Shown: piece after piece, positions 6,458 to 63,085 of the stretch | How positions within the stretch are numbered: the stretch's first letter is position 1 | Layout of the letters: the number at the start of each line of letters is the position of its first letter | Origin: Callorhinchus milii | Taxonomy: Eukaryota | Direction of reading: 5' to 3' | DNA length: 64,000 bases | NCBI RefSeq assembly: GCF_018977255.1 | Contig: NW_024704742.1 | Location: 119,290,001 to 119,354,000, forward strand | The notes under the pieces: generated by a model | What the model was told of the DNA's origin: nothing | Seen by the model: the letters and a program-made list of their open reading frames with translations, nothing else | Databases searched by the model: none | Made by a program: the position numbers and the translations under genes

Positions 6458-8392
6458 CATTAAATTGATAACGAGTCCTTCCCCCAACCACATTATTCCA
6501 GCTGCAATTTTTTTAACACCAGCTTTTTAGATGCTTGGTCTAAATTGCATTTGTTCCACTTAATGCTGTCCAAATGTGGTTTAGTGCCAGTGCAAATAAT
6601 AGCAGGCTAGACACTTAGTGTTTCTTTACTTTAGTAATAATGCATTTCATCCTGTAGTTTTCCACCAGGGAATATCACGTTTTCACAGAGTAGAGCTAGG
6701 AAGGATTAGTCACATCCAGGTTGTAGGTGTCAGGGTCACTTGATAAATTCCATCAAGCTATTGAGCTAGTGCATGAAGAACTGGTCTGACTAGGTAGGTT
6801 GCTTTACACAGATTGAGAGGGTTGTGAAGATGTAGAATTCTCTGTCCCAGAAAGCTGTAGAGACAGAATCAATAAGGATGTTTAAAAGAGAGATCGACAA
6901 ATACTTGGGCAATAATAATAATAATCCTTGCATTTGATATAGTGCTTATCAAGTCTTTGCGATGTCTCAAGGCTCTTCACAGAATATACTGTAAAGTAAA
7001 TTGACTGTATATTTTGTGGGCGAAACGCAGAAGCCAATTGTGCACAACATTTGGATAACACCCAAAACTATTTTTCCTGCTCTAGTCAAAACTCCAGTTC
7101 TACCAATATTCTGAAAGCCAATTACAAACTAGTTCCTGTTTTGCTGTGTTCCTAGGTATTTATTTGAGATTCAGAAACCAAGAAAGCAAAAGTAATTAGG
7201 GTTGTGTCAAATGACTCCTTTAAGAAAGAACTCAATCAGTATCTGGTTGAAAACAGTTTTGAAGGTTATGGGGTGAACAACTCATTTAGAGAGCACAGTG
7301 ATTGGGAAGGAAGGAGAAATGTTGACTCTGGATGGAAGTAGGCAGGGATGTAACCAGGATCTTTAAAGTAACACTGAAAAAAAATGGATTCAGTTAACTC
7401 AAACATTGATGTTTGATGTCAGGACACAAATTCTGAGCAGGAGCAGGCTGAGCCTAAGCAGGAGGGAGCCATGTAAGCAAGGTAGAGCAGAAATCATAGG
7501 AGGCAGTCCTAACAATAATAATACTGAAATAATAATCCTGTAAGAATTTGTACATTTGATTTAATGACTATAATGTCAAATGTCCTAAAATCTTGCACAA
7601 GTAATTGTAACGTATAGTAACTGTGCATTTGTAGGCCAACATTGCAGCCAATTTGTGCCCAGCAATGTCCCGCAAACAGCCATGAGGTGGATCAATTTAT
7701 CTGGAGATCTCTTTTTGAATAGGGTCTAACTGAATAGACAGACAAGACCATGGTTTAACATCTCGTCTGAAAGGCAGGCAACCTTGTTGCATTGAAAGTT
7801 GCTCCTCAAGAAAACAATAAAAGCTTCATCTAAAGCCCTCGAGCCATCCTTTGGATCAGTTGAGAGGTTTTGAGAGAAGATTGGAAAGAGGAAACAGTCT
7901 CATTTTACTGGATTTACACTGTAGTGATTATGCTGCCAAAACCACCTCCAGGCGGTGATCTCACCAGCAAATTGCAGCGCAATTTATTCCCAGATCATGT
8001 TGCCTAATCGATATTTATATAGTGCTTTTCATATTGAATTATTGAACATTGAAAATAGTAGCTACTACATTTGCTACAAAATATATTCTAATGTTGACTA
8101 TTAGCAAGGCAAGCATAAGAAGGATTCTAATCAATACCCACAAATTTGAAGACTGTGGAGAAATTAGGAGCAAACAGAGTGGGGCGTTGATCAAGCACAA
8201 CCAGGCAATTAACACAGGAGGGATTCAAACTACATGAATGAAATGCAAATAAAAGCATCCAAACACTGGCTACAGTAGATAATAATAATCTTTGCATTTG
8301 ATATAATGGCATATCACATCATTGAGATGTCTCAAAATGCTTCACAGAATATACTGTAAAGTGGATTGACTGTATTTTGGGGGCAAAAAGTG

Positions 8393-8877
8393 ATGAATTG
8401 TACAAAAGGAGAAGTACAGGCTGAATGCACAATGATAGTTTTGCTTATAAACAAAGTGAAAAAAGACCCAATTCTTGGCCACTTAATATTACCCACAACA
8501 TAGCAATATTTTGTATAGAAAATCAAACCATTAAAAAGATCATAAATCAATATTAATTTTGTATTGAAAACTGAGAATAGTTTGCTACAAAATAAAATGG
8601 CAGTATTATCATTATAATAAAGTGGTAGTATTAATTATTAATACTATTAAATCACATTTTAAATGAATTGATGTTGACTTGCAAACAATATGATTAATAA
8701 TAATATCTTTGAGACTTCTCTCAGTTTCCTCTTTTGATTCATCAATTTCTAGGGAAGAACAATCTTGAGTCTATTGTATTATTTTAAAGTAGCTGAAAAA
8801 TGTCTTGTCTAACATGCAGAAAAAAGACAAGATGTAGTTATGCATCCAGCCTGCATTTCTCCTTTTGTGCAATTCAT
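8393..8877. mobile_element. Probable non-autonomous DNA transposon with 37-bp inverted repeats
   Basis: 8393-8429 and 8841-8877 are reverse complements at 33/37. Confidence 0.6.
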
Positions 8878-9808
8878 GTATTGCAACCAGTCTTTATTTG
8901 CAGTGTCATGTAGGTTTCAATCCCTCCTATATTAATTGCCTGTTTGTGCTTGCTCAATGCCTCACTTTGCTTGCTCCTAATTTCATTACAGTTTTCAAAT
9001 AGTGTGGGTATTGATTAGCAACATTATGGTTTATTTCTAATAGTCAACTGATAATTTCACATTTGGTGTTTTTCTTAGACATTCCAAAACACATTTGTGC
9101 TGGTAAAGACGGATAGTAAGTTGAAAGTTCATGTGCTTTCATGGTCCTCTCATTACAATCTTGGTTCATTCCAAGTAATTCAGCTCTTTATGGCACACTG
9201 CCAATAAAATACAAGCCTTTGTTAACTAACTACAACTATCAATGAACATACAATTAAATGTGACTGGCTATTATTTTGTTTTATTTCATGATAGTTCAAA
9301 GTTACTTTTTTGCTAATAATTTTTTCCCGTTACTAAGACTAATTTCACAGCAGGAATAATTTAGTCAGGCCTATATATATTTTTGCAGAACCTCATGTCA
9401 AAGCAATTACATAGAGAGAACATAGAATTACCAGATAGCTCAGTGTAAATGGACCAAAAGCTGGAATCCTTCATGGTTTCAAAGTGCTTCACAGAATATA
9501 CTGTAAATTAAATTGAATGGAGAAATGTGGATATATTACAATGGGGGCGGTTGGGAAGTTTCGGCAACCAAGGTGGAATGTGGGAAATACCTCAAAACAC
9601 TAGTTGGTAAAAGTAAGACTTCAAATGAATGCTCAGAGAGCAATGAACCTAATGACTAAGGTTTTCCTATGGCTTAACTCCTGTTTCTTCATGTTTTGTT
9701 TCCCCTCTTTGACCAGGACGGATAAGGTCACTTAAAGCTTCCTGCTGCATAGAGTTAATTCGACTGCACTTACATCAAAATATTCAGGAGAGGTATTTAA
9801 ATAAGGCT

Positions 9809-10141
9809 ACTAGCTCCCCTTTCTCCTAAGTTCACACTTTATTTGTGAGTTATGCAATGATTAATGTGGCTATTATTTTTTTGTGGTGTGACATTGTATT
9901 GTCCAATTGCACCGTTCAACTAGTGTCAATTTTCTCTTTGTTTTTACTGGTGTTGTTAACAAATACAGCTCAATTCCTTATCTATAATTGTCATAATTAG
10001 GTCCCTTGTGCAATTTTTCACAGCAGTTGTGGCCAGCATTGTTTGGTATTAATAAGCATCTGTTATTAATGTAATTTTTCTCTTGCTAAATGGGCACATA
10101 GTCATTGCATAACTCACAAATAAAGAGGAAGAGGAGCTAGT
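9809..10141. mobile_element. Palindromic MITE-like element
   Basis: Perfect 24-bp IR 9837-9860 / 10102-10125 plus outer 9-bp IR actagctcc / ggagctagt. Confidence 0.65.
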
Positions 10142-15580: not shown

Positions 15581-16204
15581 ATAAATAGTCTGCGATAATT
15601 TTTCCATTTACAGTACAGTATTTACACATGTTGCTACTCCATGCTCTTTTGAAATAAAGCATTCTTCTGGAGCAAGTTATTTCTGTGAGGGTTGGCACAA
15701 AGCAGATTTGCATCACCTAGCTGCTTCTAGTTAATGCTATAATTCCCCAAATGCCTACATCACTCACCAAGCCCTAAAATTTGATTGGGGCTTTCAATCA
15801 CAAGCAGCCTTATGGAAGGTTGAGTTGACTGCAATTACAAATGATAGGTCAAAACAGTTGGCAAGCTTTTATTATAAACAAAGTAAGAAAAACTGATGGA
15901 ACGAGTTATCCTGTTAGTGCCCCCTGCATGATAGTTCCAAAATGAGGTAACTTGCTTAAGACGTTCCAAAGTTAGCAAAAGTGGCTCTGCTGTTCGACAT
16001 AATGAAGGAGAGTACAATCAGATAAGCTTTGGAATTTGGGTTTTGTTTATTTATGCAGTCAGTTTAAAAATTTATATTCCTTGCATTTAATATAACCCCT
16101 TATTGAGTTGTTGAAACATCTTAAAGTGCTTCCCAGCAATTTGTGAAGTGAAGTGTCCATCATGTTAATGTTGTGCTCTGTATGTAGGACTTGCAATTAA
16201 TCAT

Positions 16205-17215: not shown

Positions 17216-18649
17216 AGCGCTCTATCCAATTATTGTGAATACTTGTTATTGTAAGTATTTTAAATGATTGTACCTGACCCAAGCAAACTATCTAAATGAA
17301 AGAACTGAGAGACTCAGTGGACACATGCGCAACATAGTAATGAATGGGTTAACATGCTCATTACATGAATATCTCAAACCCTTATCTAATGTTTGGAATC
17401 TCAGAAACTAAGTATATGTTAAAAGTCTCATGTTTGACATTAACTTTGTAACTCACAAGATCTTGAATAGGTTAGGTATGTCAGATCACCAGTCAAATAT
17501 TTTCCATATTAAATGGATTCCTTCGGGGTTCTATTTTTGTTTAGCCCAGGCCTCTGGGTTTAATTATTTTTCAAAGGGAGAATTATTGGTGGAGATGGTA
17601 GAGACAGCTTCAGATAGTACAGTCAGAGTCAATCCAGTCACAAATCCAGTTTGGAGGGGAAAATCCTGCATGGGATGGAGACTTGAGACCTTCAATAGGT
17701 AATTGAGTCCATTCCACCATTGATATTACTGTTTGCAAACTAAATTGCAATCTCTTCCCTGAATCCACAGAGTAGTGCCGAGGTGTAAACCTAGGTAGGA
17801 AAACCCACCAAATGGAATCTTTACAAAATCAAAGTAAGGAAAACTGATGGAAGAAGTTATCCCAAATGGAATCTTTGGAGCAGAGGGACTTTGTGAAATG
17901 TGGACTGCAGAGGTTATGGGTATGAACACAAAATATCTGAAAATTGATCTTTCACTTGAAATCATGAAGAGGTTTGAGACAGTAATGGACAGCTCTTATT
18001 GAATGCTGCATTTGCATCAAGGGCTCTAATAATAAAAATCCTTACATTTGGTGTAGTGCTTTCATGCTGGGAGGATGTCCAGTGATTCTTATGTGAGTGA
18101 ACTCAAAGTTATTAGAAAAAGCATAAAGAAGGAGATTGGAAAAAAATCTTCACATAAAAAATTATTAGGATGTGGAACACATTAGCACATGTGGCTGCTG
18201 AACCTGAGCCCATGTTATTATGTTATTTAAAAGGAGCTCCAGTGGGGAGGCATAGCCATAATGAGCTCAATCAACCTGCTCTGTGCTGAAATTCCTATCA
18301 TTCTACACTGTACTGTATTCACTTGTATACAGAAAGAAGTGAAAGAAGTTATTGCCTGGTAGAGCTCTGATCTAAGTGATTTGACCATCACTGATGCTAA
18401 AGTTTGAGTTTTTCCTGATGTTCGGGCCAACAATCCTCCAGATACAATCAATACTTCACTTTGTGTCAGTTTATGGGACATTGCTTATGCACAGATTTGC
18501 TGTCACATTCACCTATAAATACGTGATCACCACACTTTACAGTAAATCCTGTGAAACGCTTTGTGAGTTTTTGAGGGCATGATAAGGCCCATCAAATGCA
18601 AGGATATTGTTATCACTATTAATATATACAAAACCAACAAGTAAAGCTT

Positions 18650-19495: not shown

Positions 19496-20630
19496 TCTAT
19501 TTTAAGGACTGAACTTGATGCATTTCCCAATGGAAAGCCATTCATAGGTACATGTTTCCTGTTCGAATGTGCATTCTCTTACATTTGCCGATATTGAAAC
19601 CCATCTGCCACTCCTTAAGTTATCTATGGAATTGGTCCATATTTCTTGCATTCAATTTGACTGTGTTTCTGGTTATCTTTCCCCTCATAGCCCCTCAATC
19701 CCAAACCCCAGCTCAGGTGCACGTTCAGCACTGTGAAGCGCATCCTCCTGACATGAAAGGCGCCATATAAATGGAAATTGTATTGTATTTATCCTCCGTA
19801 GATTAGTTATTTTCTTTCAAAATAGCTCGATATCTAATAAATTTGACAAAGTTAAAATACATTTTCTTCTCTAAGTCAATAGTGTGCACAGCAAAGGATT
19901 AAGGACAGGACCTTTGTACAATGGGACTAATTATTACACCTTCAGCCAGCCAAGCTCTTTACATCTATCATTACTTTCTGTTTCTTGTTGCTGAAAAAGA
20001 TTTCAATCGAGTTTGTTTACTTCTCATAATTTTAGTTTCACATGTGGGACTTTAACATGTATCTATTGCATACGTCAACAACAACTAACAATAATCAGAT
20101 GTATTTAAAATATAGCGTAGTCACTGTTGCATTAGTCTATTAAAGGCTTCACAGAAGCTTAGAATATTTATTTTCATTCCTCTGCTAGTCACGCTAGCTT
20201 TGATGAAAGTTATGAGTTCTTCGAATAAAAGGAACACGAGATTTAGGATATAATTATGGAAATATTTTGTGGATTCTTTCTTTTCATGGTCCTTGTAATT
20301 TTGACCACATTGTGAATTTACAGCATGTTTTTCATTTCAGAGTGTTTCCTATTTCTGCCTAGCTAAATAATTTGGAAGATTGTGACACAAATGTCACGAA
20401 TACAGCAAAGGGAACAGATGGGGCTGTAGTCCTGCTAATTGGATCAGTTGCAGCTTCAAACACTGAAATGCACATGGCAAGTTTTACACAGGTCAATACA
20501 GGCCCATAGAAATATTCTGCAATTCTGAGATTTGGAACAACCAACTTTTACTTCAAAGAGATAATTTCAATGAAAGTGTTAAGTGGGACAGTGTGTCAGT
20601 GTGTCCCACATTCATTCAAACAGACTGTAA

Positions 20631-22265: not shown

Positions 22266-24657
22266 TTGTCAATTACACAATTCAAGGACACCTGTAATTA
22301 TAGGGACAGTATAACTCACAATGGATTTTTTTATTTAGCACTATATTTTGCGTGATGACCAATTGTCTGTATCTACGGGTGGGGGCAGGTTGGGGTGGGG
22401 GGGGGGGGGAATTATGCAGATAGTCTGCTCTCCACTATACTTTAATCCAAATTCCATGTTTCTTTACTGTGCCCTTGTGCATTGTTCCTCACATTGTTCC
22501 TCCTCAGTAAGTGTTCATTCATATTAACAAGGTTAAAACAATTCTCCTAGACAAAAGCATTCTTGATCAAGTAAACCTTACGAGTGCGTATTCTCTTAGT
22601 GTTTTTGTGGAAAGCCAGATGTCTGGCAGAGTCTACTGACTTGCGTTACATAATGCCACATCATGGAATCCCTGTGTCATATGCAGCATAAGCTGCTTTT
22701 ATTAAAAACAAATGATGAGTGGAACAGAGGCAGAGGGTAGATCAAAAACACCTTTCTGGGTGAAATCTTGTGGTCACCATAAACCAGATGAGATGGTTTC
22801 TGAAGAAATTTGTAACTTTGAACTCACCATCATATGCCTCCAATCTGTTATTAAATAAATAGAGGCCCCTCATCGATGCTACAAAAAGGATTCTTTGAAA
22901 AGTTGGCAGCTTTCCACAGTCTACAAATGTGGTGCAACTCTTGCTGGCAGTGAAGTAGTCAAATTTTTAAAATAAGAAATAATTTACATAGCAAGTAGAA
23001 ATCAATCTGCCAAACATTCCCCAATCAATCTGCTTCACCCATAGAAAATGTCACGATTACATTGAAATAAATTGCCAATTTTACAAAGAGAGCCAATTTG
23101 ACATTTTTGCCACACTGCATCAACCTCTTTTGCTTACAGCATATAGCGTGCTACAAATTATTTAGTATTTGGGTTCAAACCAAAGTGTTTTTTTTCCCCC
23201 TGAGCCCATAGGACCCTGCCCTTGGCTGTATGAATGTGTGTCAGAGTGTTCAAAATTTATATGGTATCATAAAGCAACTGCTTAGGAATTTATTTGTTAT
23301 GAAATAATCTGTCCCAGGATGCCAGGTCAATGGTACGCTTAAGATCACAGATGTGATGGTCCAATTAAAGCCCTTTGGCACCAAAACCATTTTGAAACTT
23401 TTTTTTAAAAAGGCAGGTAAGTAATGTTTTTTTTTACTTTGGTTCCAAATAAGTGAGGTTATAAGTGGGGCAACCCAGTCGTGAGCAGTCAGTGACCCTA
23501 ACCTAGCACGTAGCTTTCAAGTGCCTACAACACTGTCTCCTTCAATAAGTTTGAGGTGCGCTTATTACTCATTATACTGTACATGCTGTGTACCTCACAA
23601 TATTCAAAATATGGATTCCATTATCAAACGTGTGTATTGAGGATAGATCAATATGACCATTCAAAAAAGAACTGGATATGCACTTGTGTGCAGTTAAACA
23701 CTTAAGACATATGAGGAAAGAACAAGAGAGTTGGGTTAAAAAAAAGAATAGTTCAGAAAAATAGGTTACAGAGGCACAGGCATCATGGGTTGATTGGCCT
23801 GCCCACATTGAAAGAATGAATGTTTCCAACACAGCCGGCAATAGGAAAGTGAGTGCCATTTGTCACTGGAGATACAACAATAACGGTAAATATCATTTTT
23901 TAAAAAAATATTGATGCGTACAGCTGGAATTCTAGGTACAATACAGTATGTTTGTGCAAAAGAAAAATTAAATGATTTAAGGCACTTGAGAGTATTGTAT
24001 GGATCTATTTGATAGTTGATACAAGTACTTGAATGAAAATGAATAACCGTTATAGGTAGAGGTGTTATTACTTTGGCTTTTTGTTCACTTTGGATAAACT
24101 TGAGTCGGTTCTGGGAACTTGGAGAGACCCAAGACGTTTCAAAGCAGTGAACAAAGAGCTGAAGCTGCAACACCTCTGCCTGTAGTGGTTATTGATTTTC
24201 ACTCAAGCACTTGTATCAAACTTGTATCATCATAACAGCCTCGGAATTAGACGGGAATGGTGACTTCTGTGTGAGAAAGTACTCAATCCTGTTGTGTTAA
24301 TATCGTCCCGAGCTGAAAAAGGTAGAACTTGTCCTTTGCGACAGCATTCTTGCTATCTCCTGGCTGGTATCTATTCATCTGATTTTTGGTAAACTATTGG
24401 CAAGAAGAGAACCAACAGTGATGTAAATGTGCAATCCACAGAGACACATCAAATGTCCCAAATTGCACCCAATCATAACCAAGAAGACCATTTTGTCTTA
24501 AGCTGTGCAAAATTGTGCAAAATAATTAAAATCATTTTTTATTCTGGAGGACAGTTCTTATCATGAAAGACTGCAAAAAACAACTTCCAAACTTAGAAAC
24601 AAATTTAAGAATTTGCACCATTTTACATGATGTAAAATCTTAGGAAAAAATGATTTT

Positions 24658-25894: not shown

Positions 25895-27235
25895 AAACAA
25901 CAACAAGAATAAAATTACATTTGTACAGCGCCTTTCACGTCAGGAGGATGTCCCAAGGCGCAGGATAATCAGTCTTTCGGACACGAGCTGGGGGTTGGGA
26001 TTAGGGAGGGTGGAGGGCAGGGGTGGAAGCAGGATGAGCAAAACAACAACAACAAAATTATATTAGTATAGCGCCTTTCATGTCCGGGGGACATCTCAAG
26101 GCGCTGGGCAGACAGAGTTATGGACCTGAGCTGGGGGTCAGGGGGAGGGTGGAGGGAAGGGGGGGAAACAGGGAGATCGAAAGCACGGTTGAAGAAGATG
26201 GTCTTGAGATGGGTCTTGAAGGTTTCAAGGGAGGGGGCGAGATGGAGGCACTGCGGGATGGTGTTTCAGAGGGTGGGGGCAGAGTGGTAGAAGGTCCGCA
26301 CACCAATGGTGGGGCAAGCGAGGTGGGGGACATGAAGCAGGCCGGAGCCCGCTGAGTGAGAAGGATGGTAGGGAGTTAGGAGGTCGCAGAGGTAGGGGGG
26401 AGCAAGACCGTGGAGGTCTTTGACGGTGAGGACCAGGATCATAAACTGTATCATCTGTGAGATGGGAAGCCAGTGGAGTTGGGCAAGGATGGGGGTGATA
26501 GGGTCGCGGGAGAGGACACGGGCTGCAGAGTTCTGAATGATCTGCAGCCTGTGGAGGGAGGAGTTGGGGAAGCCGACAAGCAAGGAATTTGCATAGTCAA
26601 GCCTCGATGTAATGAATGCACGTATGAGAGTTTTGGCGGCCTGTGGTGTGAGACAGTGGCGGAGTCGGGCAATGTTGCGGAGGTGGTGGAAGGCAGAGCG
26701 GGTCATGGCATAGATGTGGGATAGAAAAAACATTTGAGGGTCGAACAAGGTTCTGGATTGGCTTAGCAAGGTGGAGTGTGCAGCCATGGATGGTGATTCT
26801 GTCAGAGCCTGAGGTGTGGAGGCGCTGACATAATAATAATAATAATAATAATAATCCTTGCATTTGATATAGCGCTTTTCACGTCGGGAGGACGTCCCAA
26901 AGCGCTTCACAGAACACACTGTAAAGTGAATTGACTGTGTATTTGTGGGTGAACGCAGAGCCAATTAGGAGAGCCTCGATCTTGTTGATGTTCAACTGAA
27001 GAAAGTTAGCTCTCATCCAGGACTTGATGTCTGACAAACATTCTGTCAGGACAGCAGTGGTCCTGGAGTCAAGGGTTTGAGGCAGAGAGATAAAGTTGGG
27101 TGTCATCCGCATACAACTGGAAGTTGACCTCATGTCTGCGGATGATGTCACCAAGAGGGAACATTATAGATTTTGAAGAGGAGGGGACCAAGGACAGAGC
27201 CCTGAGGAACTTTGCACAAGACAGTGCGGGGGCTA
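25895..27235 (-). mobile_element. L2 LINE (RT C-terminal half and 3' end) preceded by a second short L2 3' end
   Basis: [35 protein letters not shown] motifs; two (CAA)n tails near 25896 and 26043. Confidence 0.9.
26830..26963 (-). mobile_element. 5'-truncated young SINE nested in L2
   Basis: Near-identical to 4085-4210 and 29534-29670; interrupts the L2 reading frame. Confidence 0.9.
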
Positions 27236-27880: not shown

Positions 27881-29074
27881 AAATGAAACTGTAACATGCT
27901 TTTACCAACTGATTCCAGAACGGAATTTAAACAGGAACTGAGTAGATATCCAAATGGGAACAACCCCTTGATTACATCGAGGCTTGACTATGCAATTTTG
28001 TGGAATATTTCTTCCCTTGGCAAGCAGCGAAGAAATATTCCACAAAATACAATGGTGCTTATTTGGTGCTGGGACCATTCTCTATAGAATTATCAACTCA
28101 GATGGAGCGACTTTGCAGCGAGTCATTGGCAGTTTCTAAAAGCAAACACAAGACAGCTCTGTGATTATTCTCAATATTAGAAAGCCCTCACTATAACCGC
28201 CCTCACAGTAACTCCCACTAAACATTCTAGAGTGTCCACAATCCAAAGAAAAAATATCTTATTTTGCATAATTCACCCACAAAAATATCTGTCCAATCGG
28301 CAAGAAATCTACTCATCCACTTAATAAAGTAGAACCAAACAAAACTCTTCAACTAAGACAGCACGTTATAACCAGCACACCTACACACATTCTATCAATG
28401 TGACCACCACAAAGATTCAATGCCAGCTAAATGCTTGCATGAAGAGAACAATCCTACGTATGATGAGGCAATGCTACTTTCTCCTTCTGGCTGCTAAACA
28501 AATCAATGCTGCCCTGTCACAACTTACCAAGCTAAAATACAAGTAAGAATAGAATTTAACTTTTTGTGCATGTAGACATCAGATTTAAAATATCACATCA
28601 AGAATCGCTAAAAATTTAAGACTTGGGATGTATAGTGTGGTACTCTGGATTCTCTGGGTGAAATGTGTTTCAGACAGATAAAACTTTATTTAACATTAAT
28701 ATGTTACTTATCATTCTTGTTGTGGATACATTCTTTAACTCACTGACACATGATGAGGGTGGGTTATTGCGGATAGCTGTAAGCTACCCGCGACCTTGAT
28801 CTGCTCTGTGCTGTAGCTGAATATCATCTAATCCAATGAGACAACTACAGAAAATTGATTTCAGAGAATTATGTCTAGATCATCCCACTCGAATAATATT
28901 CTTTTATTTTCAACTACATTTGAAATGATCTTTAATTTGTTGGAAATTATCTTTAGGATGGTGAAATCCAGATTGTCAGGCTTGTGAGTTCAAAATCCTC
29001 ATCCTCACTTTCCTGGCTCTCCAGGGCCTTGCTCCTTCCCATCTCTGTGACCTGCTAACCCCATATCAACCTGT

Positions 29075-30060
29075 CATACGAATATAGGAACAGGAGGAGG
29101 CCGTTCAGCCCTTCGAGCCTGTTCTGCCATTTAATTAGATCATGGCTGATCTGTATCTCAAATAATCCTTTCAATTCCAATTTCTCACTTTCTCCCCATA
29201 TCCCTGACCTACCAAAAAAACTTTGCTCTTGAAGGTATGGTTGGATCCAGCATCCACGGACTTTTGGGGGAGAGAATTCCAGATTTCTACCACCCATTGG
29301 AGTGAAAATATGCCTCCTGATTTCACTCTTAAATAGCCTGAATCTCATTTTAAGACTATGTCCTCTTATTTTGGATTTGCCATCATAGGAAATAGCTTTT
29401 CTTTATCTATCCTATCAAATCCCTTTATCATCTTAAGTACCTCAATCACCCCTCAACCTTCGAACCTCAAGGAAATACAATCCAAGTTTATTCAGCCTTT
29501 CCTCGTAACTTAACCCTTTAAGGCATGGTGACATTAATAATAATAATAATAATAATCCTTGCATTTGATATAGCGCTTTTCACGTCGGGAGGACGTCCCA
29601 AAGCGCTTCACAGAACACACTGTAAAGTGAATTGATTGTATATTTGTGGGCGAACGCGGCAGCCAATTGCGCACAGCGATGTCCCACAAACAGTCGTAGA
29701 TTGAAAATGACCAATTTATTATTGTTTTTGTTTTGGAGGGATTATTATTCTGGTGAACCTGCACTGCAACCCCTCTAGGGCCAATGTATCTTTCCTAAAG
29801 TGAGGTGCCCAAAACTGAACGCAGTCTCCAGATGGGGTCTGACCAATGCTTTATGCAGCTGAAGCATCATTTCTTCCCCTTTGTATTCCAGGCCCCTTGA
29901 GATAAAGGCCAACATTCCATTCGCCTTTTTGATTACTTTTTGCCCCTGGGAACTAGTTTTTAGTGATTTGTGGATATGGACACCCAAACCCCTTTGCTCC
30001 TCCACAGTTCTTAATTTCTCCCCGTTAAGAAAATATTCTGCTTTATCTTTTTTTGGACCA
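29075..30060 (-). mobile_element. 5'-truncated CR1 LINE
   Basis: EYFLNGEKLRTVEEQRGLGV, KKANGMLAFISRG; same subfamily as 18650-19495. Confidence 0.9.
29534..29749 (-). mobile_element. 5'-truncated young SINE nested in CR1
   Basis: (AAT)n tail; body near-identical to 4085-4300. Confidence 0.9.
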
Positions 30061-32479
30061 TTGTAGGCCCCATTTTCTGCACTTTGTGGGTTTCTCAAAC
30101 AGCTGACTTACTGAATTCTGCTTCTTTATAAAAAAGTTCAGTTAATAGGTGACAAAATTAGCAGCTGCTCTCTCTGAGTAATTACATGGCCTTGGCTATA
30201 CTGGCAACATTACATTATCACTTTCAACCAGAATGATAAATTGTCCCTGAGCTGCTGCAGGTTGGTCATTGTCCAAATTTACTGGGTACTTCTAGTGATC
30301 AGCGAGGAGACTGGAATGTGTGCTCCCAGCCAGTGTTCCCATCTCACCCTGTGCAAATCTATAAAAGTACTGTATTCTAATTGCGTTAGATATATTTACA
30401 TTGAGACTTCCTCCTGTTCGTCAGAACTGTTGAGCTAATACCATACAGTCCCACATTACCACATAGTGACTGGGTGTGCCCAAAAGTAAGTTTCAATATG
30501 AATGTAACTACCTCGACTTGTGGTCATAATGTGATTAAAATAACATTCCCACACTAACTGTAGACTACTGAATAGGAGATGTAGATTCAGATCCTAGTTC
30601 TGATTGACATTTGCATTCAAATTTTATCAATCTCCATCAAATCTTTAATGGGAGGGGAAGAGCTCACTGCAACAACCTCCCTTTGCGCTTCCCAAAACTC
30701 CACATCTAAATTGTTTTATGGCTTTTAACTGTACAACACAATGGGTACACATTTGTGTTATCCAAAGAGTATACTGGATGCGAGGCCCAAAAGTTTACCT
30801 TGTCTTAACTTAATCGCTATTTTGTCTTAAGGTTTAACATCCTCCAAAATTGTGAAAAATTCTGAAACTCAATTTTAATTTGGAGGTTGTTCTTTCTACA
30901 GTTTTTTTAAAAAATAGTCCTTCTAAGTTAGGATGGAATTGAAGAATTTCCATGATTCTTCTAACTTTTAAATTTCAAGACAAAATTATTTTATTCCCCA
31001 GACCAGGTGGAATTTCAGGCCTGTGGTACTGCTGAATAAAATGGCTGTTCCACTCATGAAGGAGACTTGAATATGTGCTCCACTTTCATCATTCCAGTGA
31101 TTTGCTGGAAAAACCTCATGGGTCCACTATAAGAAAGCAATGTGCGCCAGCAATCTTGCAAGGTTCACTCTGCAGCCTGACTGCCAAGATCACACAGAGG
31201 ATAGCAATGTGCTCCTCTGAAAATCCACTCAAAATCAGTTCTCCTTAAATGTTCTTGGGGCCATGGAACATTGTTAAATGTTATGCCAGGTAACCTGCAC
31301 TTTAATAACATAAAAGATCTAACCGTGTAATGTAGAGCTCAGAGCATGGGCCTAGTTACCCATTCACAGAACTCTCCTCAGTCCTCGATTACATCGATTG
31401 GGAGCAAGAAGTGAAAATCCTGACCATTTCTCTAGATTACTCTACTCCTAGAACTGATCCTGCTGCATCTCTTCAGTACTGCTGTATAAACAAGGACGGG
31501 GTCTGCATGCATAATTCGAATATAGTATCCTGGATGTTGTTTTTTTATGCACTACAGCTTTACATAGGTCAATTTGTGGATTATTTAAGAAATATGTCAT
31601 TTTGAAAATACGTTGTGCACTTGGAGCAAGGATATTTAATTTAATTTATGTGCAAGGAATGCATCAGGAAATTATTACCTAAAGGTAAAATTAGCAAGTG
31701 TATTAGTGACTCGCCTTCAGAGTGCTGACTGTGTTGTTTGCAACCTATAAATTTGTCCATTAGCTTGACATGGTCCCTTGACAGTAGCACATTACTAGGA
31801 ATCATTATTGATCATTGTGTGCCATGTGTGACTTCACTGCATGCGTGCACTCCTGCCAACAGCAAATGCTAGCCAGAATTACAAGATGTACTGTGATTGC
31901 AAATATACTTTTGTTGTTTGACTTGGAGCAAAACCAAAACCACCTAATTCAACTTAGTTTGGATCGGATGATCTTTGTTTCTTAAGTTGCTGAAAACTGC
32001 TTGCCAATGATTTGATTCTATTGAGATTTTTTTTGCTAACAAATATTTGCCTGGGAACTTGAATGTTTATTCAGTATTTCTTTTCATGGTAAAACAGAGA
32101 ACTCTTGTTTTTTCCTCTCTAATTCTGTGTTTGTTGTAAATGAATACTCAGTTACATTCAGTGTATCTTTTCGTATTGCTTTCTGGTGATATTTTAGTCT
32201 GTGGTTACAGGTCCCTATCACAACTCAAGGTACTCTGCGTATTCTGGTCAAAATGTCACAATGAATGTTAAAATAGCAACCTGACTCTGTTGATGCCTTC
32301 AGTAAACAAAATATTTCACAAGTTTAATAAACCATTAGTTACAGTAAGCATATTTCATCATTCCCAGCCAGATCATGGAAATCAATTGGAAAAATACACA
32401 ACAATAGTCCCATATTCAGCCTAGCTCAGGTGGTAGCACTCTTGCCTCTGAATCAGAAGATTATGGGTTCAAGCCCCAT

Positions 32480-37504: not shown

Positions 37505-39235
37505 AGTATAAGTATGAGTATAGTTTAATTCTCACAGTGTTCCGAGAACAGTAATCACATTAAAGCATCACATCAAGAATTGATAAAAATGTGAGACTTG
37601 GGATATGCCATGCTGTGTTCTGGGTGAAATGTGTTTCAGTCAGATAAACCTTTATTGAACATTCATATGTTAGCTATCATTCTTGTTGTGGGTACATTCT
37701 TTATCTCACTTACACATGATGAGAGGGTGGGTTATTGAGTACAGCTGTCAGAGACCTTGTTCTCACTGTGTTTTAGTTGAATATCATCCAATCCAATGAG
37801 ACAACTGCAGCAAAATACATTTCAGAGAATTATGTCTAGATTTTCAACCACATTTGAAATGATCGCAACTCTTTAATTTGTTGATTATGATGTTGAAATC
37901 TAGATTGTCAGCCTTGGGTCTACATTCAGGCCACATTTTCTGCACTTTGTGGGTTTCTCAGACAGCTGATTTACTCAATTCTGCTTCTTTATATAAAAGT
38001 TCAGTTAATAGGTGACAAAATCAGTAACTGTTCTCTCTAAATAACTATATGGCCTTGGCTATGCTGGCAACATTACATTATCACTTTCAACCAGAATGAT
38101 AAATTGTCCCTGAGCTGCTGCAGGTTGGTCATTGTCCAAACTTACTGAGTACTTCTAGTGATCAGCGAGGAGACTGGAATGTGTGCTCCCAGCCAGTGAG
38201 TGATCTGTTCCCACCTCTGTGCAAATCTATCATTTTTTTGAGGGCAGTCAGGTGTCTCTGACACATGCAGAAACTCATCATAGTGCTTAAGAGTATCCAA
38301 ACCACGCTGAATCTTCTGCACATTTATAACAACTACATGTGGAAATTTCCCTGTGTCTGGTATGGATTGTGCACTCTCTCCCTGGTGTGAAGTAACCCTG
38401 CTTACCCCATGCCTGAGAGTACCAGGTGCAGGTTGGCTAGAGCCAAGCCTTAGAGACCCCAGTACAAGAATTAGGGTATTGCTCAAACAGCTAAAACCCC
38501 ATATCTTGCCATTATCTGGCAAGCTGCTTGTCCAGCTACAACCACTATTAGGGCTTTGACCTGTAGAGGTAACAGAAGCTGAGTGGGAAAAATCCCTAGC
38601 ATTCTACCCCTTTAGGTCCTGCAAAGAAGCTATGCGGTTTATATTGGTTAGACTCCAGCAGTACTCCAAAGCACACTCTCTGGTCCCCAAACGTTGGGTC
38701 TTGTTAGTCTACATCTTCAGAATTAGGAAAGCAGGATGTATCCCTCCAGGGAGAGAGCGCACACTTCATGCATCCCACATGGAATTTCCATGTGTAGGTG
38801 GGATGCATGGAATTCTCAGCTTGGTTTGGATACTCTTAAACATGGTGATTAGTTTCCAACATATGTCAGACACCCACTGACCAACCAAAAAAGGCAAATG
38901 AGGTGGTCTGTCATCGACAGTGCCTTAAAGTACTGCATCTTCACCTAGCTCAGAAACACCGAAACCGTCACAGAGAGTTGACTTGATTACGACTTTCTGT
39001 TGCCAGGGATGTCAATTTGGAATCAGCTCAGCTCATGGAGATGTCAATTAACTGCCCTGCCACCACCCCACAAAGAGAACAACGAGAAATTTAAAACAGT
39101 ATTCAAACTGCATGAGAGGCATTTACCCACTTTGGGACTTCCTCTCATGTGTCAGAACTGCTAACACATGCTACATGTCCTACAATGCTAAATAGTGACT
39201 GGAAGTCTCAAAAAGTAAGTTTCAATATGAATGTA
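37505..39235 (+). repeat. Local duplication, copy B
   Basis: See copy A; lacks the L2/CR1/SINE insertions but carries family X insertions. Confidence 0.85.
38250..38892. repeat. Two family X fragments in opposite orientation
   Basis: 38250-38610 on minus, 38640-38892 on plus; shared 3' motifs. Confidence 0.65.
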
Positions 39236-42805: not shown

Positions 42806-43192
42806 TTAAATTTGGGTCTCCAGTTGGGAATTTTTTCCAAATGGTTTCCATAATGGAGCTGCTGTTGATCAAACAAGCCTGCTGGGATTAATGGTTTGCT
42901 ATTAAACTTCTAAAATATTCTGAAGTAACCCTACTGCCAGTAGTTTAACACCTTCTGTTCTTGCTTTTCAAAGCATGTTATAACTGCTGTCAAATCAAAT
43001 TGGTTCTACATGTACTTAAATAAGTAGAAAATATCTTTCTGGATTTCTTTCATTGGAGAAATTCTAAACAGTTTTTTTTTAGCAAATCCAGCTTCATCAG
43101 CTATAGTAATTTGCCAGTGCAACATGTTTGCATTATCAACTTCAAAACATTTCTGGGGGAGCTAAATGGGCTTCTAGTTTCACTGAAATCTT

Positions 43193-43494
43193 AAACAAAA
43201 ACAAAAGTCCCTGGGAACACTCAGCAGGTCAGGCAGCATCTTTGTTTTGCATGCCTCTTTGACCCATCATCCCCTGTCCTCTACCACATTTTCTCCTTTG
43301 TCTTCCTTGCGCTGCCTCCCCCCTCTGTTAGCTCTTAAAAGCCTCTCCCTCCCAACATGCCCCAGTTCTCACGAAGGGTCGTGGACCCGACACGTTGATT
43401 CACTTTCCTTTCTCCATAGATGCTGCCTGACCTCCTGAGTGTTCCCAGCAACTTCTGTTTCAGATTTCCAGCATCTGCAGTATTTTGCGTTTTG
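43193..43494 (+). mobile_element. Penelope-like element pseudo-LTR fragment with inverted 5' segment
   Basis: pLTR motif gatgctgcctgacct.ctgagt; 43211-43241 is an inverted copy of 43419-43449; 14-bp flanking duplication ttcactgaaatctt (43179-43192, 43495-43508). Confidence 0.8.
43368..43400 (+). ncRNA. Degenerate minimalist hammerhead ribozyme motif in the PLE pLTR, probably inactive
   Basis: ctCacga-a-gggtc-gtg-gaccc-gaCacgtt versus canonical CUGANGA-stem II-GAAAC. Confidence 0.55.
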
Positions 43495-46166: not shown

Positions 46167-46301
46167 GAAACAAAAACAGAAGTCAACCCAAAACGTTGAC
46201 TCACTTTCCTTTCTCCATAGATGCTGGCTGACCTGCTGAGTGTTCCCAGCGACGTCTGTTTTTGTTTCAGGTTTCCAGCATCTGCAGTATTTTGCATTTT
46301 G
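46167..46301 (+). mobile_element. Second Penelope pLTR fragment, inserted in a SINE tail
   Basis: Matches 43385-43494; 46167-46184 is an inverted copy of 46251-46268; flanked by gcaag(a/g)attattat. Confidence 0.75.
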
Positions 46302-54172: not shown

Positions 54173-54202
54173 TGATATGATATGATATGATATGATATGA
54201 TA
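54173..54202 (+). repeat. (TGATA)6 microsatellite inside a SINE tail
   Basis: Direct reading. Confidence 0.9.
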
Positions 54203-55169
54203 AGGCAATAACAAACAACAACAAATTACATTTGTATAGCGCCTTTCACGTCAGGAGGATGTCCCAAGGCGCTGGACAGTCAGGGATCCACACCCGAGCT
54301 GGTGGCTGGGATCAGGAGAGGCACTATATCAAATGCAAGGATTATTATTATTGTTACATTTGGTGTAAAGCAATTTGAATGTAATTCATTTGCTTAATTA
54401 GACATCAAACAAAATTTGCCTACAAATACACACTACACTTTTCAGTAAATCCCATGAAGCGCTTTGAGACATCCTCCTGACATGGGAGAATACGTTATAT
54501 GGAATGCAATGATTATTATCATTTTATTGTTATAAAATATTCTGTCTTTTGTGCATAGCTTACACCTCAGGGAACCGTTAACAGGGTCACTATTCCCAAT
54601 GACATAATTTGGCCCCACCACAACTCATAAGAAATGCCCAAAGTGTTGTATGTGTCAGTTGCTGCACATAAATCACAGGCTGACTGAAATGGCTATGGCA
54701 GGCTGAGTGGTTCAAAATATATCTATCTATCAGACAGACTGCATCTGTACATTGGCTGCTAAAGTCTCTCAATAAATGTTCTAATTTGAACCTAAATAGA
54801 ACCCACAATGCAACTGGCGGCCTAAATTGTGTTTATTCATGACACGAAGAATTACGATGTAGTTAATCACATTTTTAGCACTTTATTGGAGACAGGGCAA
54901 CATAGTTTCAGAGAGAGTGAAGCTCAGCAAAGATTTATTTGGATGATACTACAGTTGAGAGGGGATAGTTATGTAGAGAGACTTGAAAAGTTGGGACTGT
55001 TTTGCTGGAGCAGAGAAGGTTGGAGGTAAACAGTGAGATAATAACATCTATAATGATTTGAGGTGATATTGAACGTTTACAAATTTGAAACATCAACAAG
55101 CGGAACTGGTGAAATTCATATAACATTTGAATAAGTTCTTCTAGTCCATTGTCTACAGTAACAAAATGT

Positions 55170-59971: not shown

Positions 59972-61873
59972 ATTGATTAAGCAATACAGTCCAACATTCT
60001 GTTTGCTTTGTTTATTAATGCCTCACACTATTTTGATATAGTGAATGACGTTCCACCAACACAACTAGATCTCCTTCATTTTCCCCTTAGCAAGTTCTAT
60101 CCCATTCTTGGAGTACTTGTGTTTCCTATTCTTACTTCCTAAATGTAGTACCTTGCATTTATCAATATTACAATTGATTAGATTGAAGTTCTATAACAAC
60201 AAACTATGTAAATCATAATGTATTTATACTGATGGGGGGGTGGGTGTTACATTTTGTTACATCCTTGGTTCCAGCTGAAGTGGTTTCTGTTGAACACTTC
60301 CGGGCATGGATCATCCTTGCTTGATGCAATTTCCCTAACATTGTTCGTTCCATCTACAGAGGATGTCAGTCTCAACTTTCTTAAACTGAAAACATTTTGC
60401 TTTTGTAATGACCTTGAAGGTGTACATGACCAGAGTCACTATGGTGACAGTCATGAATGGTAGTTTCCTTCATGGTATGAAGTTTCTTAAGTTGATGTCT
60501 TTCAGTAAGCAAATATAATACTACTACAGGGCTTGTTTTTAAAATCTGTTTGCCTTTCTGCAGTCTGTAGTATAGGGTTACTAATGCAATGTGGGAAGGT
60601 CCTGATTTCCCAGTCTAAAGCTCACAACCTTCCTCTTTTGTTACTGTGTTTGAATGGAGTGTTGGACACAGGTGGGTACAACAAAAACACTTTATTTAGA
60701 AGCACAAAAAACGCTCCAGCCAGACCACATGGCGCGCTGGAAGACATTACATTACACCATGCTGGGAACAATCTCAACAAAACCTATAATTAATCCTAAT
60801 TCAGCAGGATTCATTCCGTTCACAATTAAACAAAGCAATTTAAACCAAATAATTACCAGGCTGAAAAAGCTGCCCGAGAGCCATGACTATACTTACCTAT
60901 TCTCCCTCCAGCCCATGGCCAGATGCCAGACCCAAGTTGTGGGCTACAGAAAGCTGGAACAATGAAATCTCTCTCATGGAAGGGAGGGAGGGGCAGAGTG
61001 AATGCTTGCATTGCATTGAGTCTCCAAAGCTGCTTGTCCATATTCCTATGGTGGAACCTCAGGAGGCAACTAAAAGTCAGTCACAAAGACGTCTAGTGCT
61101 AGAACATATATTTATATAGCACCTTTCACATCAAATAACTCCTCCGAGTGGTGGAATCCAAAGCAGCATTTGGTTATATAATGCATAGTTCCAAACTGGG
61201 AGTTTAATTTTCTGGCAGCAAACTCTGAGGAAAGTATATACATATCAGTATATCCTTGCATATGATATAGCCTTTTAATGTTATCAAAACATTTCAAAGC
61301 ACTTAGCAGGAATTTCTGTATATTTTGCAGGCAAACATGGCAGCCAATTTGTACACAGGAATGTCCCACAAACAGGAAAAGGGGGTGATATCAACAATAA
61401 CAACAACATTTATATAGATAAAGTGAATGACCAGTTTTATCTGGGGAATCATTAATCAGAACATCAGGAAAAGCTCTCTTCTCTTTTCAAATAATATTGT
61501 GGGATCTTTAACGTCCATCTAAACAGAGAGATAGGATCTCAGTTTAACATCTCATGCGAAGGGTATCACCTTCAACAATAATAATAATACTTGCATTTGA
61601 TGTAACGCCTTATCACATCTTCGAGATGTCTCAAAGTACTTCATAGAATTGACTATTAAAGTGAATTGACTGTATATTTTGTGTGTGGAAATAATGCAGT
61701 GTTCCCCACATTTGAACTGGAGTATCAGCCTAGACTCCACATTGCAGGCTTGTACAGGTGAACTTACATTTCAGAAACGTCTGGAGATCAGAAAATAAAT
61801 GGAGACAATTCCAGTGTACAGGAGGGAATTGTTTTGCCGTGCTGTGCAGAACGTTATTGTCTCCAGATGGAAT

Positions 61874-62261: not shown

Positions 62262-62557
62262 AAGACCCATTTCATGAGGTATTGATAAGCACTGAACCTG
62301 TTGACATGAACATTCTAAAAGAAATGAAACAGCTGCTGCAATTCACAGTTTATTGTTTAGCAAACACATAGTTAATATATTTTTTTACCACAGGAAGGAT
62401 ACTTTTAAATGAGGCTTTGCTTTTGATCACGAGGCACAAACTGCTCTCCATGTGACACATACAGTCTACAATCACGAATAGTACTATGTGATTCAATGAC
62501 CACTATTTTAACAGTAGTTACTCTGTCTCTATTTGTGAAGGGAAAAGGGGGTGATAT

Positions 62558-63085
62558 CAACAATAACAACAACATTTATATAGATAAAGTCTCGGAGTGC
62601 TTTCCGGGTGCGGGAGGGGGGCGGGATTGGATGCCAAATAAGGAAGAGGGGGAAGTGACAATAGATGAGGTTGAGGAAGTAGATTTTCAGGTGGGATTTA
62701 AGGAAAAATAAGAGTTTGAGACAGAAGGATTGAGGCAGGGAATTCCAAAGATTAGGGGGGTCGTAGTGGCTGAAGGCACAGCCACCAATGGTGGCACAGA
62801 GGAATCAAGGGGCCGCAACAGGCCTCTGCTAACTGAGCGAAGTGAGTGAGCAGAGGAGTGGGGTATGGGCAGGTCAGAGAGCTAGGGAGCTATTAGGGTG
62901 TGAAGTGGTTTGTACGTGAGGGTGAGAATCTTGAAGTTGATCTGTTCAGAGACAAGAAGCCAGTGGAACCTAATGAGAATTGGAATGATGGGCATGTGGA
63001 GTTTGGCGTAGACGAGGATATGAGCAGCAGAGTTTTATATTAGCTGGATCTTGTGGATGGTGGAACTGGGGGAGACCAGTGAGGA
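62558..63085 (-). mobile_element. Old L2 3' fragment
   Basis: (CAA)n tail; reverse complement of FKILTL, HWL and LWNSLP codons. Confidence 0.75.

What the first reader, a model, noticed from the sequence alone, without database searches (positions are those of the whole stretch)
61375..61424. Exact 50-bp copy of a site 1.17 kb downstream pasted into a SINE
Seen: 61375-61424 is identical to 62541-62590. The donor spans a unique-DNA/L2-tail junction, so it is not a free repeat. The recipient SINE motif cacaaacag[ccatg]aagtgaatgacc lost about 5 nt and shares aagt microhomology at the right junction. Inference: a recent locally templated repair insertion. With 17830 and 27971 this gives three events in 64 kb with donors 1.2-2 kb away, hinting at a frequent germline kb-range template-switch process.
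Basis: partly seen in the sequence, partly recalled or inferred. Interest (0 to 1): 0.7.

Follow-up and report, generated by a model that had tools for sequence, protein, structure and literature searches.

The report
Local copy-paste repair scar in SINE
A 50-base piece of DNA was copied from 1.2 kb away into an old SINE repeat, most likely while a chromosome break was being repaired; it is real but an ordinary example of a known vertebrate process, and only its frequency in this fish lineage is still open.

Summary
In detail: 61375-61424 equals 62541-62590 (50 of 50, same strand, 1,166 bp apart, unrelated flanks). The left copy interrupts an old SINE, with about 5 nt lost, 4-nt and 1-nt microhomologies, and no target-site duplication or poly(A). 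The right copy spans unique DNA and a decayed L2 tail, so it is the donor. Contigs of 4 of 4 public runs (one study) break where a two-copy 50-mer predicts, so it is very unlikely to be an assembly artefact or a common repeat; polymorphism is unresolved. This is a repair-mediated duplication as defined by Pace et al. 2009 (interrupted TE, donor under 5 kb, peak near 1.2 kb, microhomology plus deletion), so the process is known. The two other events (17830, 27971) are real, but at 33 and 25 bp they lie below the published 50-bp floor. One selected window cannot show an unusual rate. The scan noted similar local copies before, in this genome and in others (unchecked notes). A genome-wide, age-normalised count is the open test.

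The parts
61375..61424 (+). Acceptor: 50-bp copy inside the SINE; first letter and last 4 letters are shared with the SINE (microhomologies), net new DNA 44-45 nt, about 5 SINE letters lost
   Evidence: right junction on contigs 61395-61512 of runs X14 and X17
62541..62590 (+). Donor: about 17 nt of unique flank plus the last about 33 nt of a decayed L2 3' end
   Evidence: contigs end at 62570/62571 and restart at 62561; run X14 reads another letter at 62541
61252..61575 (-). Host: old SINE-family copy with an L2-like tail; a younger SINE 3' fragment starts at about 61574
   Evidence: self-BLAST, alignment with 7 paralogues; 5 related copies elsewhere in the window carry tRNA heads (Rfam RF00005); ends approximate
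62558..63074 (-). Decayed, 5'-truncated L2-type LINE 3' end whose tail is part of the donor
17808..17876 (+). Second event: 33-bp copy (17830-17862) after 7 nt of mostly filler, between two exact 15-bp direct repeats (17808-17822, 17862-17876)
15879..15911 (+). Donor of the second event (30 of 33 identical, 1,951 bp away)
27971..28048 (.). Third event: inverted 25-bp copy (27971-27995) abutting a perfect 20-bp-arm hairpin (27995-28048)
26589..26613 (.). Donor of the third event, inside an L2 copy (25 of 25; the only other L2 copy covering this site in the window matches 19 of 25)

Best explanation
A germline repair-mediated duplication. A break or stalled fork occurred inside an old SINE. One 3' end annealed through a few bases of microhomology to DNA 1.17 kb away on the same chromosome (sister, homologue or the same molecule), copied about 45 nt, came off, and was rejoined to the other end with about 5 nt lost. 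The 4-nt match at the right junction is the likelier priming end and the 1-nt match at the left the resolving end. Shown: identity, direction, junction anatomy, presence in other runs. Inferred: the break, the order of steps and the pathway (SDSA-like repair and fork template switching leave the same scar). It has no sign of function.
For: Exact two-copy match with unrelated flanks. Acceptor interrupts a SINE that resumes in register; it is the one clear near-donor case with a non-family donor among 66 repeat interruptions examined. The donor is a unique/L2 junction in its native context. Contigs break at 62570 (X15, X16, X17), restart at 62561 (X14, X15, X17) and 61395 (X14, X17), the places predicted for a 50-mer present twice with 31-letter words; in X14, which differs at 62541, the break shifts to 62571 as predicted. 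PMC2671141: 824 of 1,136 human TE-interrupting duplications have the donor within 5 kb, peak about 1,200 bp, and microhomology plus deletion without poly(A) is a standard junction class. Of 10 two-copy pairs with unrelated flanks in this window, 6 lie under 3 kb apart (P about 9e-5), 3 of them of this type.
Against: No empty allele or outgroup site was seen, so the lost bases and microhomologies are inferred from paralogues. No listed contig crosses the left junction, and the two that cross the right junction have 30 letters on the insert side, one short of the tool's 31-letter rule. The left microhomology is 1 nt and that donor letter is itself variable (X14). The other 3 of the 6 near pairs are short-spaced inverted repeats of another kind, and with a looser repeat mask the near enrichment vanishes at low scores. 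The enzyme pathway cannot be read from one junction.
Confidence: 0.85

Rival explanations
1. RNA-templated patch or extreme L2 3' transduction: a transcript through the donor L2 tail and its 3' flank was reverse-transcribed and inserted, or nascent RNA patched a nearby break.
For: The donor is exactly an L2 3' end plus about 17 nt of its 3' flank, the anatomy a 3' transduction would have. Class 2 templated sequence insertions show microdeletion and microhomology and are proposed to come from RNA (PMC5110952).
Against: No target-site duplication and no poly(A). The donor L2 is truncated and decayed, and the acceptor copies its decayed state. Retrotransposition gives no reason for landing 1.17 kb away; in PMC2671141 none of 39 proximal cases had poly(A/T) tracts. 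The two side events do not start at LINE tails.
Confidence: 0.06
2. Canonical polymerase-theta end joining with a templated insert.
For: Microhomology of 1-4 nt, a small deletion and a templated insert are its signature (PMC4490562; PMC11541566). The snap-back hairpin at the third event resembles foldback synthesis.
Against: In human cells those templates were typically under 10 bp and peaked within 20 bp of the junction (PMC11541566); here the insert is about 45 nt and the template 1,166 bp away. Pol theta could still take part in a longer-range version.
Confidence: 0.05
3. Assembly artefact, or two members of a common repeat.
For: Part of the 50-mer is a simple L2-tail repeat; no long reads were available; the listed contigs do not span the whole acceptor.
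Against: Contig breaks in 4 of 4 runs fit two copies; the right junction lies on contigs of 2 of 4 runs with no differences; depth over the donor bin is 35-55 against about 5-20 in single-copy DNA and up to 1e6 on SINE parts.
Confidence: 0.02
4. A tandem duplication later pushed apart by insertions, or gene conversion between older similar sites.
For: The 1.1 kb between the copies holds several repeat insertions; the separation model is mentioned in PMC3248578.
Against: The acceptor sits inside a SINE that continues in register on both sides, the elements in between are far more diverged than the two copies, and the flanks share no homology (local scores 6 and 5).
Confidence: 0.02

Closest known systems
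Repair-mediated duplications (Pace, Sen, Batzer, Feschotte 2009; PMC2671141; read: parts 1-5 of 8 of the whole text and passages of Methods)
   Same: Insertion found as a TE interruption, one donor under 5 kb (peak about 1.2 kb), microhomology plus 1-15 nt deletion, no poly(A); microhomology with target-site duplication (as at 17830) is also among their classes.
   Different: At the lower size limit (50 bp matched, 44-45 net; their mean is 162 bp). Their survey covered mammals, chicken and zebrafish; the word 'shark' does not occur in it. No empty orthologous site was checked here.
Doublets / short paired duplications (Thomas et al. 2004 PNAS; not held, not read; known from Pace's description and from recall)
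   Same: Short exact pair, non-tandem, about 1 kb apart, same strand (size range, spacing and strand bias are recalled).
   Different: The third event here is inverted and carries a hairpin; their densities could not be read for comparison.
Pig Tex14 51-bp insertion (PMC3248578; passages read)
   Same: 51-bp same-orientation copy of downstream DNA (360 bp away) with little damage to the target.
   Different: That one hits an exon and causes infertility; this one sits in a dead SINE; no host-gene domain was found in 140 frames scanned.
Templated inserts of polymerase-theta end joining (PMC4490562, PMC11541566; passages read)
   Same: Microhomology-primed copying with a small deletion; foldback products.
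   Different: Templates there are mostly under 10 bp and within about 20 bp of the junction.
Class 2 templated sequence insertion polymorphisms (PMC5110952; abstract and section 9 read)
   Same: No target-site duplication or poly(A); microdeletion and microhomology.
   Different: Their templates are distant and proposed to be RNA-derived; here the template is local and polymorphism is not shown.

Membership tests
Repair-mediated duplication (PMC2671141) | Acceptor interrupts a TE whose two halves resume within 30 bp of consensus position | tested here: met
   About 5 nt missing against 7 paralogues; recovered by chained self-BLAST with 5 supporting copies
Repair-mediated duplication (PMC2671141) | Donor on the same chromosome, more than 50 bp and less than 5 kb away | tested here: met
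   1,166 bp
Repair-mediated duplication (PMC2671141) | Junctions with microhomology, deletion or filler, and no poly(A/T) tract | tested here: met
   4 nt right, 1 nt left, about 5 nt lost, no tract; read from paralogues, not from an empty allele
Repair-mediated duplication (PMC2671141) | Exactly one other copy in the genome | tested here: inconclusive
   Two copies in the window; low contig depth excludes a common repeat; no whole genome is held, so a third copy is not excluded
Repair-mediated duplication (PMC2671141) | At least 50 bp (the authors call this a limit of their method, not of the process) | tested here: inconclusive
   50 bp matched, 44-45 nt net
Repair-mediated duplication (PMC2671141) | Empty site in an outgroup or in other individuals | tested here: inconclusive
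   No empty allele among the listed joints of 4 runs, but 1,236 joints were not shown; the X16 piece that starts at 61420 could be a variant or an empty allele; no outgroup was laid
Doublets (Thomas 2004, recalled) | Exact 25-100 bp pair, same strand, about 1 kb apart | tested here: met
   the definition is recalled, the paper was not read
Canonical polymerase-theta templated insert | Template short and within about 20 bp of the junction | tested here: not met
   About 45 nt from 1,166 bp away against PMC11541566
Canonical polymerase-theta templated insert | Dependence on POLQ | not testable with these tools
   Needs mutant germlines
LINE-mediated insertion (class 1 TSIP, 3' transduction) | Target-site duplication of 5 bp or more and a poly(A) tail | tested here: not met
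   None at 61375-61424; features from PMC5110952
Class 2 TSIP | Distant template and presence/absence polymorphism | tested here: not met
   Template is local; polymorphism not shown

The most novel reading that the evidence does not exclude
This cartilaginous-fish germline makes kb-range templated insertions at a rate, per substitution, many times that of mammals and zebrafish, in direct, target-duplicating and snap-back inverted forms. The window holds 3 events in 64 kb (47 per Mb, 95% interval 10-137) against 0.08-0.65 per Mb of TE DNA for events of 50 bp or more in the published vertebrates. The genome would then be the best natural catalogue for asking what sets the 1-2 kb reach, and local copying of exons and splice sites would be a steady source of intronic antisense and decoy elements.
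Probability: 0.25. Interest if true: 0.55.

Novelty: new member of a known kind. Interest (0 to 1): 0.22.

Why it matters
As a single event it matters little: a clean, read-supported example of a repair-mediated duplication in a lineage that the published survey did not include, with no sign of function. It would matter if a genome-wide count showed a real lineage excess after correcting for age, since the published densities vary only about eightfold among vertebrates and the cause of the 1.2-kb peak is unsettled (the authors say it may be an artefact of looking inside TEs). The second and third events here lie in unique DNA at 1.4 and 2.0 kb, which is what a TE-independent test of that peak would collect.

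Tried and rejected
No whole genome is held for this window, so the genome-wide scan could not be run. A looser pair scan (160 of 1,308 pairs kept) was swamped by SINE-tail fragments: no near excess at score 14 or more (16 under 3 kb, 14.7 expected) and a modest one at 22 or more (7 of 23, 2.1 expected); the stricter third-copy filter was set after seeing this, so its P value is indicative only. Dropped as further events: 8393/8841 (part of a longer inverted repeat with 8093-8253/8893-9048), 9837/10102 and 24016/24169 (short-spaced inverted repeats, perhaps element ends), 36030/36930 (two retroposon tails), 43385/46186 (a fold-back repeat with a third partial copy, 87% alike), 38645/41253 (family repeat), 26834/29535 (101 bp exact at 2.7 kb, but a young SINE family with 3 differences further on). 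One search returned nothing because of unsupported BLAST gap costs and was rerun. Pfam on 140 frames (135 of 151 non-repeat frames of 55 aa or more plus 5 repeat frames) found only two LINE domains, which does not exclude short exons. Thomas et al. 2004 and Abyzov et al. 2015 are not held, so no baseline for 25-50 bp events could be read. Paper searches found nothing; one search (83 papers with 2 of 3 terms, 20 listed) listed none with 'templated insertion' and shark. These searches found no survey of such duplications in cartilaginous fishes, but the library lacks most subscription papers. Supplements of PMC2671141 were not opened; its Table S1 would give the size spectrum near 50 bp.

Full report
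Observation. The stretches 61375-61424 and 62541-62590 are identical over 50 of 50 bases, on the same strand, 1,166 bp apart, and the match stops sharply at both ends. An iid match has an expectation of about 3e-24 in this window, and 8 Markov-4 simulations of the window gave only 2 pairs at score 18 or more, best 19. The best third site matches 29 of 50 letters.

Direction and junctions. The left copy sits inside an old SINE-family element on the minus strand. Of 29 hits of the flanking SINE motif, only this one is followed by the 50-mer. In an alignment with 7 paralogues the SINE resumes directly after the insert, about 5 nt short. The last 4 letters of the 50-mer are also the SINE's next letters, and the first letter is the SINE's last letter on the left, so 44-45 nt are new. 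Two paralogues have a variant that would make the right microhomology 5 nt and the loss 4 nt; without an empty allele this stays open. There is no target-site duplication and no poly(A). The right copy begins in unique DNA and runs into the 3' tail of a decayed LINE that continues to about 63074. A junction of this kind is made once, where that LINE landed, so the right copy is the donor. A long copy of the same LINE family encodes RVT_1 and endonuclease domains; the label L2 is recalled.

Is it real? I laid 4 of the 23 listed runs (X14-X17, one study, contigs only). A 50-mer present twice should break a 31-letter de Bruijn graph at 62570 and restart it at 62561 and 61395 (the word length follows the tool text and recall). 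Observed: left donor contigs end at 62570 in X15, X16 and X17; donor contigs restart at 62561 in X14, X15 and X17; acceptor contigs start at 61395 in X14 and X17 and run to 61512 without a difference. X14 reads another letter at 62541, and its contig ends at 62571, the shift expected if the acceptor keeps the SINE's own letter. Depth over the donor bin is 35-55, against about 5-20 in single-copy DNA and up to 1e6 on SINE parts, so the 50-mer is not a common repeat. Limits: no listed piece crosses the left junction; the right-junction pieces hold 30 insert letters, one short of the tool's bridging rule; most pieces and 1,236 joints were not shown. X16 has a piece that starts at 61420, which could be a variant inside the insert or an empty allele. 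The runs differ from the window at 11 listed single-copy sites, so they are not simply the window's haplotype.

Age. Zero mismatches in 50 bound the divergence below 5.8% at 95%, while the host SINE's right part is 68-78% identical to 6 paralogues. The event is much younger than its host, but two copies are implied in all 4 runs, so it may be fixed. 'Recent' holds only in that sense.

The other two events. 17830-17862 matches 15879-15911 at 30 of 33 (direct, 1,951 bp) and lies between two exact 15-bp repeats with 7 nt of mostly filler. 27971-27995 is an exact inverted copy of 26589-26613 (1,382 bp), where the only other LINE copy covering the site matches 19 of 25, and it abuts a perfect 20-bp-arm hairpin; copies of that LINE outside the window could not be checked as donors. 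Of 673 pairs at score 18 or more, 48 beat any third copy and 10 also had unrelated flanks; 6 of the 10 lie under 3 kb apart (P about 9e-5), 3 being these events and 3 short-spaced inverted repeats. The filter was set after a looser scan that showed little enrichment. A Pace-style search of 66 repeat interruptions flagged 6 rows with a better near than far match; only the 61375 event has a donor that is not a family repeat or a longer inverted repeat. No fourth convincing event was found.

Mechanism. Most likely a broken or stalled 3' end annealed by microhomology to a template 1.17 kb away, copied about 45 nt, disengaged and rejoined with a 5-nt loss (0.85). The 4-nt side is the likelier priming end (inference). 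SDSA-like repair and fork template switching cannot be told apart here. An RNA-templated route deserves mention because the donor is a LINE 3' end plus its 3' flank, but there is no target-site duplication or tail, the donor was already decayed, and proximity is unexplained (0.06). Canonical polymerase-theta inserts are mostly under 10 bp with templates within about 20 bp (PMC11541566) (0.05). Artefact and separated tandem duplication are each about 0.02.

Comparison with what is known. They link these to the doublets of Thomas et al. 2004, which I could not read. A 51-bp same-orientation copy from 360 bp away disrupts pig Tex14 (PMC3248578). The finding meets every tested positive feature of a repair-mediated duplication; genome-wide uniqueness, the 50-bp floor and the empty site are inconclusive.

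Frequency. With about 37% of the window in repeats, the human density predicts 0.015 events of 50 bp or more here and about 2.4 in 161 windows (161 is the number of windows with notes in this genome). One chosen window with one such event is therefore no excess. The 25- and 33-bp events are below the published floor and have no baseline that I could read. The repeat landscape (L2, CR1-like, tRNA-derived SINEs) and contig totals of about 0.9 Gb fit a cartilaginous fish; earlier notes call the genome elephant shark (unchecked). [quoted passage not shown] As a lead only: the scan's notes on this genome list several further local copies of 51-205 bp, seven of them touching exons or splice sites, whereas 8 of 824 human donors did so (Table 2), and one note describes an inverted copy beside a snap-back hairpin like the third event here. 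I did not check these notes, and readers select for exon-touching cases, so they do not enter the score; they say where the genome-wide test should look.

Verdict. Observation confirmed; interpretation partly supported; a new member of a known kind; interest 0.22. The boldest reading left open is a lineage-wide excess of kb-range templated insertions (probability 0.25, interest 0.55 if true).

Noticed in passing
window 27995-28048: Perfect 20-bp-arm hairpin with a 14-nt loop directly beside the inverted 25-bp copy; looks like snap-back synthesis in the same event. A shorter similar palindromic stretch lies near 20258-20282.
   Followed up: partly
window 17808-17876: The second templated copy is bracketed by an exact 15-bp duplication of the target.
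   Followed up: partly
window 8093-9048: Long degenerate inverted repeat (8093-8253 with 8893-9048 at 80%; 8393-8429 with 8841-8877), one arm interrupted by a SINE at about 8279-8388; possibly an old non-autonomous DNA element.
   Followed up: partly
window 9837-10125 and 24016-24219: Short-spaced inverted repeats in otherwise single-copy DNA (24 bp exact; 51 bp at 86%), element ends or old inverted duplications.
   Followed up: partly
window 26830-26957 and 29535-29657: A truncated SINE tail inside an L2 copy is identical over 101 bp to a SINE 2.7 kb away and shares 6 flanking letters with it, but differs at 3 places further on; ordinary retroposition is likelier than local copying.
   Followed up: partly
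window 43185-43494 and 46167-46301: Fold-back repeat family: one copy has internal inverted arms, a 135-bp piece sits at a SINE tail; a Penelope-like origin is a guess from recall.
   Followed up: partly
window 54173-54320: An L2 tail fragment with a short 5-mer tandem array interrupts a SINE (supported by 11 paralogues).
   Followed up: no
window 28585-28984 / 37560-37916 and 30065-30506 / 37928-39235: Two blocks are duplicated 8-9 kb apart at about 90-94% identity in their best parts; a low-copy element or a larger local duplication.
   Followed up: no
window 61742 and 62379: Indel variants among the runs laid: 8 letters missing in X16, one extra letter in X14, X15 and X17.
   Followed up: no
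window 44623: The only N of the window.
   Followed up: no
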